DNA of 64,000 nt from Escherichia coli (GTDB lineage Bacteria > Pseudomonadota > Gammaproteobacteria > Enterobacterales > Enterobacteriaceae): assembly GCF_041248615.1 (NCBI RefSeq), contig NZ_CP158426.1; one strand, 5' to 3'. Position numbers: made by a program. Positions 33,001-36,000 of this stretch are shown piece by piece (within the stretch, counting starts at the first letter, position 1; each line of letters opens with the position of its first letter).

Positions 33001-36000
33001 CTGTTTTGACCACTCCTTACCACTACCCTGAGTGATGTTATTCTTCGTCGACCTGCCAAAATCGACCTCAATTTTCTCGAACTGGTCTCCTTCCATGGTG
33101 TATTTGCCATACAACACAGCATTTACCGCCTGCATTTCTTCCACCTGGACAATCGCGTGCTCTTCCTGTTTGAGGTTATCGGTAATGATACGCAGACGGC
33201 GGTAAGCCGGATCATTCAGTTGAGATGGATCTTCACCAGGAAGGCGCTCAACCGCCTGCTGGTAATTAAATTCGTGTTTCGGCTTGACGTAGCCCGGACG
33301 CAACACGCGGGTTTCACCACCACGATGACGCAGCACTTTTCCTTCAACAACCGGGGAGACATAGGCCGCCACCGGCGTTTTTCCGGTAATTTTGTCCAGC
33401 ATCACCTCTTCGGTATGGAAATTCACCGTACGGCGGAAAAACAGCTCCAGAAACAGCGCACGAAATTTAACTTTTTGTTCGGTATAACCGAGTAACTGGC
33501 GGGTCGTAAACAATCCCATAAATCAGTTCCTTTCATTCAGAAATCAGTCAGGCCACCGCGGTGGCCTGATAACGTGTTACGGCAGCGCCGCGTGACTCAG
33601 GGCACTGCCAGCAAAGGCGTTGGCCTTTTTGTGTTCATCCACACTTTCAGGCCAGTGGATTGCCTCCGTCGCAAAGGTTCCCGACTTGTAATACGTCAGC
33701 GCCGTCTCTGTGCCTTCAAGCGGCAGTACCAGTATGCCAACCGCACTACCGGCTTTCTGTCCGTCCCAGACCACCAGTTTCCCGGTGGCTTCATCCAGCA
33801 TCAGGGGCGTCAGTGCCGGTGTTGGCGAGGAAATCCCGCTGCTGCCTGTGGCGGTATGAGCCGGATCATTACCGGCAAAAATACGTACTTCCGCACGCTG
33901 TTCAGTGATGGTTTTCGTCACCATATTGTAAAAACCTCCTATTGATGGTCAGCACTGACTTCATGGCATGGCCATGAGCATTTTCACGTCCGCATCACCG
34001 TCTGCTGACGTCTGTGCCACGCCACCCTGTACCGCTGCCGGTGAATGGTTCGCCATGAAATGTTCAAACATGGCGGTTGTGGATGCAGAGACCGGTTCTG
34101 CCTTACCTGATCCCGCAGCCAGCACAGCCCGGGCGCTCTCCACTGTCATTCCCGGGCAGGCAGCCAGCTGTTCAGCCTGCGCCTCAGCCCCTTTTGCCTC
34201 ATCCAGTGCCATGATCTGATCACGGAGTGATGGTCCGGCATCCGCCTGCGGTGAAGCAGCCAGGATCGGGCGGGCTTTTTCCACCGTCATCTCCGGCATC
34301 GCCGCCAGCGTTGCCGCCAGTTGTTCACGACCGTTCGCTTCTTCACACGCCATAATGCGATCGGCTTCACTCTGCGTGGATGCCACCGGCTGCTGCGGTG
34401 CCGCCGCGGCCAGAATCGCCCGGGCCTGTTCAACGCTCATGCCCTGTTGTCCTGCCAGCATCGTGGCAAGCTGTTCACGTCCTTTCGCTTCCTGGCATGT
34501 CAGGATCCCCATCACTCGCTGGTTCTCCTGCGCGGCGGCTTCCGTTGCAGTTAATTGCGGCATAGTGCCTCCTCTGACATTACTGTTCAGCGCCGTGGCC
34601 ATCACACTGATGGCATCCGACGCATTGATTAATTCATCCGCCAGCCCGGCCTCAATGCCGGACTGACCTTCAAAAACGGCAGCCTCTGTTCCCGTGACGG
34701 CATCAACAGACAGACCGGTATACATCGCCACTTTTTCGGCAAACATCCGGCGCGCCGCATCAATCCGCTGCTGCATGTCCTGGCGAACCTCTGCCGGCAA
34801 CGCTTCAAACTGATTGCCATCCACCTTGTGCGCCCCTGAGTAAATCAGCGTGATATCCACACCGGCCTGCGCCAGATGACCGGCATAGCTGACATGGCTC
34901 ATCATCACGCCAATGGAGCCGATACGGGATGTCTGGGTAACCAGCCGTCGGGAGCAGGCCGACGCCAGCAGCATGGCTGCAGAACAGGCCGTGTCATTGC
35001 ACAGTGCCCAGACCGGCTTCTGCTGACGGAGGCGGTAAATCATGTCAGCGCAGTCAAACGCGCCGGCGGCCTGCCCGCCCGGACTGTCAATGTCCAGCAG
35101 TACGCCCCGCACCTGGCTATCCGCCATTGCCTGCTGAAGACAGGCGACAATGCCGTCATAGCCTGTCATTCCGGAAAATGGCCGCATACCACCCAGCCGG
35201 TGCACCAGCGTGCCGGTCACCGGCAGTACAGCAATACCGTTCACCACCCGGTAAACACGGGCCGGTCGTTTACCTCCGGCCATGTACTCGTCCGTTTCAG
35301 CCAGCATTCCGGGAGCATCAAACTGTACCTGCTGTTGTGGTACCGAAAGACTTGCTGCCCCCATCTCGCGCCCGAGCGCGCAAAAGAAAACCCGCGCATA
35401 GGCGGGCTCCAGAAGCAGCGGTTCATTGAATGCTGCGGCAATAATGTGTGAAAGATTACGTCTCACGTGGTGTTGTCTCCTCTTCCGGCCTACGACTCTC
35501 CGCTATCTGCTGCTGATACGCCTGCTCTATCCACACCGGACGTGAGAGTCCGGCTTTTTGCCGCTCAGCAGATTCCCTGACCTGCTGGCGGAAAATGTCC
35601 TGATAATCCTCGCCCATCAGCGCCAGCTCTTTCTCATACGTGCTCAGTCCGGCCTCAATGCGCATCACTGATTCCTGGACTTCCTTGAGCCCGTCAATGG
35701 CCATTCTTCCGGCACCAATCCACTCTGCCCGTGACCAGGCTGATCGCGCCTGATAAAAATCAAAACGTGCCCGTGGCGGACGAATAATCCCCCGAAGAAG
35801 TGCCTCTTCCAGCCAGCAGGAAAACATCTGCGTGGCCAGCCGGGCCGCAATAAATTTTCGCCGCCCCATAAAATAGCGCCACGACTCATTGGCGGAGGCG
35901 CGGGCACTTGAGTAACTGACCTTCGAGTAATCACGGGACAACTGTTCGTAGGAAACGCCAAGACCGGCGGCGATATACCGCAGCAGCGCCTGTTCAAGCG

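What the first reader, a model, noticed from the sequence alone, without database searches (positions are those of the whole stretch)
34130..34520. Three degenerate in-frame repeats in the 3' part of the C protease/scaffold gene
The C-terminal region of C contains three ~35-aa repeats (I.TCQEAKGREQLA..LA...GM.VEQAR.ILAA), visible as ~105-bp DNA repeats. This is the Nu3-like scaffold portion; copy number may tune scaffold length.
Basis: seen in the sequence. Interest (0 to 1): 0.2.

Follow-up and report, generated by a model that had tools for sequence, protein, structure and literature searches.

The report
Triplicated scaffold module in prophage protease gene
The head-protease/scaffold gene of this lambda-like E. 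coli prophage carries three diverged tandem copies of a roughly 38-residue helical module that phage lambda's C/Nu3 gene has only once. This is a real but modest architectural variant of a well-known gene.

Summary
Window 33961-35466 (minus strand) encodes a 501-aa S49 prohead protease. It is 58% identical to lambda C and sits between portal-, D- and E-like genes.

- **Repeats.** Its C-terminal third holds three in-frame copies of a ~38-aa module: aa 317-357, 370-406 and 417-453, window 34108-34518. Pairwise scores are z = 11-19 over shuffles. The period is 141-159 bp, not 105 bp. DNA identity is only 59-68%, so Tandem Repeats Finder sees nothing.
- **Relation to lambda.** The module is the same conserved element that lambda C/Nu3 has once (C 360-399).
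- **Spread.** A profile of it finds 1102 protein clusters. It is nearly always single-copy, fused to an S49 domain and about 50 aa from the C-terminus.
- **Copy number.** It ranges from 1 to 4 among relatives, with old (here) and recent expansions and rare unequal-crossover deletions.
- **Selection.** It acts on the protein (dN/dS about 0.17).
- **Nested start.** A strong Shine-Dalgarno site plus ATG at Met302 predicts a nested 200-aa Nu3-like scaffold.

The most likely role is a multivalent protein-interaction unit of the internal scaffold; that role is inferred, not shown. It is a new variant of a known kind, of low to moderate interest.

The parts
33961..35466 (-). C-like gene: 501-aa S49 prohead protease with a C-terminal scaffold part (GTG start; the end coordinate includes the stop codon)
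   Evidence: ORF. Pfam Peptidase_S49 at 121.6 bits. 58% identity to lambda C. 100% DNA identity to the E. coli Nissle 1917 CDS WP_001253913.1, annotated 'S49 family peptidase'.
34588..35031 (-). S49 peptidase domain (aa 146-293)
   Evidence: Pfam PF01343, E = 3.7e-35. Aligns to B. subtilis SppA structure 3RST, E = 4e-16.
34568..34575 (-). Shine-Dalgarno-like AGAGGAGG, 4 nt upstream of the internal in-frame ATG
   Evidence: Read directly from the sequence. The equivalent sites are AGGAGG before lambda Met309, GGAG or AGGAG before the annotated nested CDS of BcepNazgul and Salvo, and AAGGAG or GGAGGA in metagenome loci L005 and L007.
33961..34563 (-). Predicted nested in-frame ORF from Met302: a 200-aa Nu3-like scaffold product. 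Its expression has not been shown.
   Evidence: This exact 200-aa sequence has been called as a separate protein on 37 public contigs. Nested scaffold CDS are annotated at the equivalent place in BcepNazgul and Salvo.
34396..34518 (-). Repeat R1 (aa 317-357): RVMGILTCQEAKGREQLATMLAGQQGMSVEQARAILAAAAP
   Evidence: Aligns with the lambda C/Nu3 module at 360-399. In the AF2 models these residues have block pLDDT of about 80-90 without an alignment and 80-84 with one.
34360..34395 (-). Linker 1 (aa 358-369, QQPVASTQSEAD)
   Evidence: Lower-confidence, non-helical stretch in the AF2 models.
34249..34359 (-). Repeat R2 (aa 370-406): RIMACEEANGREQLAATLAAMPEMTVEKARPILAASP
   Evidence: This unit is partly or wholly lost in rare variants: JEB8 (locus L002), P0016, P0018 and P0022.
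34219..34248 (-). Linker 2 (aa 407-416, QADAGPSLRD)
34108..34218 (-). Repeat R3 (aa 417-453): QIMALDEAKGAEAQAEQLAACPGMTVESARAVLAAGS. It lacks the near-invariant Arg of the GRE turn.
   Evidence: It is the hot spot of divergence between alleles (dS 1.1).
33964..34107 (-). C-terminal tail (aa 454-501) carrying family-wide motifs: TAMFEHFM..SP..V, an acidic stretch, then LMAMP at the end
   Evidence: Multiple alignment of the last module plus tail from 32 diverse homologues. A pairwise comparison with the lambda tail is not significant on its own.
35456..37078 (-). Context: lambda B-like portal gene, overlapping the start of the C-like gene by 11 nt
   Evidence: 61% identity to lambda B.
33577..33924 (-). 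Context: head decoration (D-like) gene
   Evidence: annotated as head decoration protein in Nissle 1917.
32491..33519 (-). Context: lambda E-like major capsid protein, 342 aa
   Evidence: 62% identity to lambda E.

Best explanation
**What it is.** The three repeats are a tandem triplication of the conserved module of the lambda C/Nu3-type head scaffold. The gene encodes an S49 prohead protease.

**Predicted second product.** A conserved Shine-Dalgarno site plus ATG at Met302 most likely also yields a nested 200-aa product. That product consists of a short leader, three modules joined by 10-12-aa linkers, and a conserved tail. It would be the Nu3-like scaffold.

**How the protease would be co-assembled.** The protease and the scaffold share the modules and the tail. 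The protease would therefore be built into the scaffold core of the procapsid through the same contacts, and would later digest that core.

**Role of each module.** Each module is predicted to fold on its own into a small unit of three short helices. Its near-invariant EAKGRE turn is the likeliest docking surface. Three copies would make each chain trivalent for its partner. The partner is either the inner face of the E-like coat lattice or neighbouring scaffold chains.

**Shown here:**
- the repeats and their homology to the lambda module;
- purifying selection on the protein;
- the association of the module with S49 proteases;
- the conserved internal start signal;
- copy-number variation among relatives.

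**Inferred, not shown:**
- expression of the nested product;
- the scaffold role;
- which partner the modules bind;
- any effect of valency.
For: - **Repeats.** They are significant and in frame.
- **Homology to lambda.** R1 aligns with the lambda C/Nu3 module. The profile finds one copy in lambda and three here. PHROG scaffold and Nu3 families hit with 3-4 stretches.
- **Selection.** dN/dS is 0.17 over the modules between two alleles, against 0.25 in the protease part.
- **Spread of the module.** The profile finds 1102 clusters at E <= 1e-3 among 1.84 billion representatives. Of the 58 long hits, 57 carry Peptidase_S49. The last module ends a median of 50 aa before the C-terminus and is followed by a conserved tail.
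- **Internal start.** A Shine-Dalgarno site plus ATG is conserved in six diverse loci. Two of those records annotate a nested CDS there, called 'Nu3 protein' in BcepNazgul.
- **Predicted structure.** AF2 gives each module as short helices at pLDDT 70-85. Linkers are low-confidence and the modules do not pack against each other (pTM 0.29).
- **Lambda biology.** Nu3 is the lambda scaffold. It is reported to interact with B, C, E and itself (PMC3224144).
- **Other phages.** C-terminal helical or helix-turn-helix elements of scaffolds bind coat protein in P22, SPP1, phi29 and 80alpha (PMC11565965).
Against: - No experiment or structure bears on this module. The PDB holds no chain with it.
- Lambda works with one module, and 2-copy deletion variants persist in genomes. 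Three copies are therefore not obligatory for the family.
- R3 has lost the near-invariant Arg.
- The conserved extreme C-terminal tail could be the real coat-docking element instead.
- Expression from Met302 is untested. RefSeq places lambda nu3 at a different, non-conserved start.
Confidence: 0.55

Rival explanations
1. The modules are mainly spacer or core-filling material that sets the bulk or reach of the scaffold. The specific docking to the coat would be done by the conserved extreme C-terminal tail.
For: - The tail motifs are conserved across the family and always terminal.
- Copy number is tolerated from 1 to 4 with near-identical 342-aa MCPs.
- Single-copy relatives have long low-complexity linkers in place of the extra modules.
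- Deletion variants exist.
- In other phages it is the C-terminal helical or helix-turn-helix element of the scaffold that binds coat protein (PMC11565965).
Against: - A pure spacer would not keep near-invariant residues (I5, A11, G13, R14, E15, A18, L21, A22, M27, A32, L36) across 1102 clusters.
- It would not show dN/dS of 0.06-0.2 either.
Confidence: 0.25
2. The modules are helix-hairpin-helix-like units that bind DNA, for example acting at packaging.
For: - Weak Pfam HHH hits: E = 0.095 on R3 in the whole protein, and a best E of 0.0015 for 1 of 22 isolated units.
- Foldseek touches the RecR helix-hairpin-helix region at E of about 8.
Against: - The hits fall below Pfam's cut-off (13 against 24 bits) and occur in only 1-2 of 22 units.
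- The nested product is net acidic, with 13 K+R against 24 D+E.
- Scaffolds are removed before DNA enters the head (general knowledge, as summarised in PMC8508860).
Confidence: 0.03
3. There is no real repeat: the similarity is a chance result of Ala/Glu/Leu-rich low-complexity sequence, or the feature is a DNA-level element unrelated to coding.
For: - The region is 23% alanine.
- Tandem Repeats Finder finds no DNA array.
Against: - Composition-preserving shuffles never reach the observed scores: 0 of 2000, z = 11-19.
- Each unit is orthologous to the same-position unit in a Salmonella homologue, at 0.81, 0.75 and 0.64 identity. Identity between units within the protein is only 0.53-0.58.
- Substitutions are biased towards synonymous changes in this frame.
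- Protein similarity exceeds what 59-68% DNA identity would give by chance.
Confidence: 0.01

Closest known systems
Phage lambda gene C / nu3 (S49 prohead protease with an in-frame nested scaffold, NC_001416 4418-5737)
   Same: - S49 domain.
- Gene order portal-C-D-E.
- 58% identity overall.
- The same conserved module and the same tail motifs.
- A strong Shine-Dalgarno site plus ATG upstream of the module.

   Different: - Lambda has one module where this gene has three.
- Lambda has a linker about 36 aa longer before the module.
- Lambda has a shorter tail.
- The RefSeq nu3 start (Met239) is Ile235 here.

Four-copy E. coli allele (P0032, locus L012) and three-copy Salmonella alleles (P0028, P0033, P0046)
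   Same: - The same architecture: S49, nested Met, tandem modules, tail.
- The downstream MCP is 82% identical, 342 aa, without gaps.

   Different: - In P0032 the copies are 75-92% identical to one another.
- Tandem Repeats Finder detects them as a 138-bp array of 3.7 copies, which marks a recent expansion.
- The window's copies are old: 53-58% identical to one another and orthologous position by position to the Salmonella copies.

Annotated nested scaffold CDS in Casjensviridae: Burkholderia phage BcepNazgul (product 'Nu3 protein') and Xylella phage Salvo (both CDS named 'head maturation protease')
   Same: An in-frame CDS of 129-146 aa inside the protease gene. It is preceded by a Shine-Dalgarno site and contains the same module and tail.
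   Different: These phages have a single module. Their starts are annotations only and, as far as I know, have not been shown experimentally.
P22 scaffolding protein C-terminal helix-turn-helix coat-binding domain (also the phi29, SPP1 and 80alpha scaffolds)
   Same: A small helical element near the C-terminus of a head scaffold, so a functional analogy is plausible (PMC11565965).
   Different: - No sequence similarity.
- The module here ends about 50 aa before the C-terminus, is roughly neutral to acidic rather than basic, and is repeated.
Tandem three-helix-bundle binding modules of bacterial surface proteins (protein A, GA/albumin-binding, Ebh)
   Different: Generic fold resemblance only, at 6-17% identity. 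The biology is unrelated.

Membership tests
Lambda C-type S49 prohead protease | Peptidase_S49 domain above Pfam's gathering score | tested here: met
   PF01343 at 121.6 bits against a cut-off of 24.9, aa 146-293. phrog_53 'head maturation protease', E = 2.8e-229.
Lambda C-type S49 prohead protease | Conserved candidate catalytic Ser (and Lys) | tested here: inconclusive
   Ser162 aligns with the Ser of the SppA 'AASGG' motif. It is invariant in the alignment with lambda, as is Lys214. The identification of these residues as catalytic (lambda Ser166) rests on my memory of the literature and was not tested here.
Lambda C-type S49 prohead protease | Position between the portal gene and the decoration and major-capsid genes of a lambda-like head module | tested here: met
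Nu3-type nested scaffold | Sequence homology to the lambda Nu3 region | tested here: met
   phrog_8399 'head scaffolding protein' (E = 1.4e-34) and phrog_8940 'capsid assembly protein' (E = 6e-30) on the last 201 aa, with 3 stretches each. R1 aligns to lambda C 360-399.
Nu3-type nested scaffold | In-frame internal translation start inside the protease gene | tested here: inconclusive
   The signal is present: AGAGGAGG, 4 nt, then ATG at Met302. The equivalent signal is conserved in six diverse loci. Lambda's RefSeq start (Met239) is not conserved. Actual initiation cannot be tested with these tools.
Nu3-type nested scaffold | Acts as a transient scaffold that is required for procapsid assembly and removed by the protease | not testable with these tools
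   Needs genetics or biochemistry. For lambda this is established (PMC3224144).
P22-type helix-turn-helix coat-binding domain | Structural similarity to the solved P22 scaffold C-terminal domain | tested here: not met
Helix-hairpin-helix motif (PF00633) | Match to the HHH profile at or above the gathering score | tested here: not met
   13 bits against a cut-off of 24 in the protein. Only 1 of 22 isolated units hits, at E = 0.0015.

The most novel reading that the evidence does not exclude
The module would be an undescribed but widespread docking domain, found in more than 1100 clusters at 50% identity. Through it, S49 protease and scaffold proteins would attach to the inside of E-type capsids. 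Its copy number would set the valency of one scaffold chain. A three-module chain could then engage three coat subunits around a local three-fold, doing in one polypeptide what other scaffolds achieve by oligomerising. Repeated gain and loss of modules by unequal crossing-over would be a fast evolutionary way to retune scaffold-to-coat stoichiometry.
Probability: 0.15. Interest if true: 0.5.

Novelty: new variant of a known kind. Interest (0 to 1): 0.25.

Why it matters
**How common it is.** Matches covering at least 80% of this gene's 3' end occur in about a third of complete E. coli genomes: 1863 of 5426, up to 5 copies per genome. These include O157:H7 Sakai prophage Sp4 and Nissle 1917. 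It is annotated only as 'S49 family peptidase'.

**What the finding adds.**
- It gives a domain-level annotation for a family that Pfam does not cover.
- It predicts a nested scaffold product that most annotations omit.
- It provides a natural 1-, 2-, 3- and 4-copy series for testing how lambda-type scaffolds, which are still structurally uncharacterised, engage the capsid.

**Limits.** It does not change the known picture of lambda-like head assembly, so its importance is modest.

Tried and rejected
- **Tandem Repeats Finder** on the region found no array. The copies are too diverged at the DNA level.
- **Foldseek against the PDB** with the single-sequence model gave nothing at E <= 0.001.
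- **A profile search of PDB sequences** with the module gave only chance hits.
- **Pfam on isolated units** showed no consistent family. I rejected helix-hairpin-helix membership.
- **NCBIfam** had no family for the C-terminal 201 aa.
- **A lambda 'vestige' of R2.** The MAFFT alignment placed lambda's 'DRLMQGAPA' against the start of R2. The 32-sequence tail alignment shows it is instead the family-wide tail motif. The pairwise comparison of the lambda and window tails is not significant by itself.
- **Context of short module-bearing proteins.** The contigs were too short. L005 and L007 turned out to be truncated C genes called from the nested Met. Only L006 has a stop codon in frame just upstream of the called gene, so it may be a stand-alone two-module gene.
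- **Literature.**
  - The key gpNu3 and gpC papers (Medina et al. 2010, 2011) and Casjens & Hendrix 2015 are not in the held library.
  - Searches for the motif or for a description of repeats in C/Nu3 found nothing relevant.
  - I therefore cannot exclude that the repeats have been noted somewhere.
- **The first homologue search** returned mostly partial proteins. It was useful for spotting variants but not for a census.

Full report
**Observation.** The finding lies inside a 1506-nt ORF on the minus strand, window 33961-35466, encoding 501 aa. Three stretches of its C-terminal third are clearly related.
- R1: aa 317-357, window 34396-34518.
- R2: aa 370-406, window 34249-34359.
- R3: aa 417-453, window 34108-34218.

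Pairwise local BLOSUM62 scores are 83-100, against 22-25 +/- 4-5 for shuffled units (z = 11.5-18.6). None of 2000 shuffles reached the observed score. A profile of the unit finds only these three sites in a six-frame scan of all 64 kb.

The gene is on the minus strand. The period is 159 and 141 bp, because linkers of 10-12 aa separate cores of about 38 aa. The DNA copies are only 59-68% identical. As a result, Tandem Repeats Finder reports nothing and the repeat finder sees only a 12-nt seed at 153/150-bp spacing.

**What the gene is.**
- The protein has a Peptidase_S49 domain at aa 146-293: 121.6 bits against a cut-off of 24.9.
- It aligns to the solved B. subtilis SppA structure.
- It is 58% identical to lambda C.
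- It lies between a lambda B-like portal (61% identity), a D-like decoration gene and an E-like major capsid protein (MCP; 62% identity, 342 aa).
- The DNA is 100% identical to a prophage of E. coli Nissle 1917.
- Matches covering at least 80% of the gene's 3' end occur in 1863 of 5426 complete E. coli genomes, including Sakai prophage Sp4. It is annotated as 'S49 family peptidase'.

**What the repeated unit is.** R1 aligns with the one strongly conserved stretch in the C-terminal part of lambda C/Nu3, residues 360-399 (RIMGILNCEEAHGREEQARVLAETPGMTVKTARRILAAAP). The profile finds one copy in lambda and three here. PHROG families built on Nu3-type proteins (phrog_8399 'head scaffolding protein', phrog_8940 'capsid assembly protein') match the region in three to four separate stretches. 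Pfam and NCBIfam have no family for it, and no PDB chain contains it.

A profile of 22 units was searched against 1.84 billion cluster representatives. It finds 1102 proteins at E <= 1e-3.
- Among the listed hits, about 86% have a single copy; the rest have 2-4.
- Of the 58 long hits, 57 carry the S49 domain.
- The last module ends a median of 50 aa before the C-terminus.
- It is followed by a tail with family-wide motifs: T-A-[LF]-[DE]-x-x-M, then P-x-V, an acidic stretch and a short hydrophobic end.

The architecture is therefore: S49 domain, linker, module repeated n times, tail.

**Coding constraint and age.** I compared this allele with one whose C-terminal 660 bp are 91% identical, from strain STEC17-183. 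The modules have dN/dS of 0.17, against 0.25 in the protease part. Selection therefore acts on the protein in this frame.

Each unit is most similar to the unit at the same position in a Salmonella homologue: 0.81, 0.75 and 0.64 identity. Identity between units within the protein is only 0.53-0.58. The triplication is therefore older than the split between these alleles.

An E. coli allele with four copies (P0032, locus L012) shows the opposite pattern. Its copies are 75-92% identical, and Tandem Repeats Finder detects a 138-bp array of 3.7 copies. That marks a recent expansion.

Rare variants of the present allele have lost all or part of R2.
- P0022 has an exact one-period R1/R2 hybrid, the signature of unequal crossing-over.
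- P0018 has lost R2 between the two linkers.
- JEB8 and P0016 have deletions of 19 aa or more.

Within E. coli the three-copy form is nonetheless stable. 1868 of 1874 matching records cover at least 80% of the 660-bp 3' end, and 57 of 60 sampled records span exactly 660 bp.

**Nested product.** Lambda's RefSeq nu3 start (coordinate 5132, Met239 of C) corresponds to Ile235 here. The only in-frame start codon with a strong ribosome-binding site is Met302: ATG at 34563-34561, preceded by AGAGGAGG at 34575-34568. It would give a 200-aa protein made of the three modules and the tail.

The same arrangement recurs in five other loci.
- Lambda has AGGAGG before Met309, at coordinate 5342, giving 131 aa.
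- BcepNazgul and Xylella phage Salvo both have annotated nested CDS at that place.
- Two unrelated metagenome loci, L005 and L007, show it too.

The exact 200-aa sequence has been called as a protein on 37 public contigs. Lambda's 131-aa sequence has been called on 165. Nested products of the nine aligned three-copy homologues are all 195-206 aa. Expression itself is untested.

**Structure.** AF2 was run without and with a 9-sequence alignment. Each module comes out as short helices: roughly RIMAL, then REQLAxxLA, then TVEQAKxILAA. These are joined by the EAKG turn and the PGM hairpin.
- In the alignment-based model the module blocks have pLDDT of about 70-85.
- Linkers and most of the tail are low-confidence.
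- The modules do not pack against each other (pTM 0.29-0.31).

**Mechanism.** By homology and position, the repeats belong to the scaffold part shared by the protease and the predicted Nu3-like product. In lambda, Nu3 is the scaffold and is reported to interact with the portal, with C, with E and with itself (PMC3224144). In other phages, small C-terminal helical elements of scaffolds bind the coat (PMC11565965).

I therefore take each module to be an independently folding interaction unit. Its near-invariant EAKGRE turn is the probable contact surface. The triplication would make each chain trivalent. The shared C-terminus would recruit the protease into the same core.

The main rival is that the modules are mostly bulk or spacer and the conserved tail does the docking. 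Tolerance of 1-4 copies with near-identical MCPs favours that rival: the MCPs are 82-86% identical, 342 aa and gap-free. So do the long linkers of single-copy relatives. The strong residue conservation argues against a mere spacer.

**Comparison and novelty.** This is a member of the lambda C/Nu3 kind of protease-scaffold gene. It differs from lambda in having three modules, a shorter pre-module linker and a longer tail. I rate it a new variant of a known kind, of low to moderate interest.

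Noticed in passing
window 34561-34575 (-); L001 (lambda NC_001416) coordinates 5132 and 5342: The lambda RefSeq nu3 start (5132, Met239, weak ribosome-binding site) is not conserved in this gene, where the residue is Ile235. 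A strong Shine-Dalgarno site plus ATG is conserved at lambda 5342 (Met309, 131 aa) and at window Met302. The same is true in BcepNazgul, Salvo and two metagenome loci. This suggests that the conserved scaffold start is the downstream one. Both lambda products exist as called proteins in public data.
   Followed up: partly
window 34108-34218 (R3) compared with L010 (E. coli STEC17-183): Divergence between the two alleles is concentrated in R3: dS is 1.1, against 0.1-0.2 in R1, R2, linker 2 and the tail, and 11.7 of the 14.7 non-synonymous differences in the modules fall in R3, mostly in its second half. It looks like a small recombination (mosaic) patch inside the last repeat.
   Followed up: partly
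L003 (Escherichia phage D2, OM475427.1) 486-2003: The C gene of phage D2 is a mosaic. About the first 110 aa are identical to lambda C and the rest is of the window type with three modules. A recombination joint therefore lies inside the protease gene.
   Followed up: no
L012 (GCA_032727965.1 contig ABNWJB010000046.1) 1-6042: The four-module allele sits upstream of D- and E-type head genes (MCP 82% identical to the window's). It is followed by gp25-like and baseplate-J-like genes. A lambda-type head module is thus joined to what looks like a contractile-tail module.
   Followed up: no
L002 (E. coli JEB8, NZ_OZ001712.1) 501-1949; also hits H149 and H143: Rare in-frame length variants of the same allele occur in complete genomes: 57 bp shorter in JEB8 and H149 (in JEB8 a 19-aa deletion inside R2) and 18 bp shorter in H143. 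Whether those prophages are still functional is unknown.
   Followed up: partly
proteins P0105-P0112, P0121: Several 'proteins' in the metagenome library that carry lambda's module are chimeras of lambda C/Nu3 with unrelated lambda or vector sequence. They are probably assemblies of lambda-derived cloning vectors or control DNA. They inflate single-copy counts slightly.
   Followed up: no
window 35456-35466: The GTG start of the C-like gene overlaps the end of the portal gene by 11 nt. Lambda's B/C junction overlaps by 20 nt. This is consistent with translational coupling.
   Followed up: no
L006 (ENA ERZ27251939 k141_189456) 21-617: A 198-aa gene carries two diverged modules and has a stop codon in frame just upstream. 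It appears to be a stand-alone two-module gene rather than a nested one. The contig is too short to see its neighbours.
   Followed up: partly
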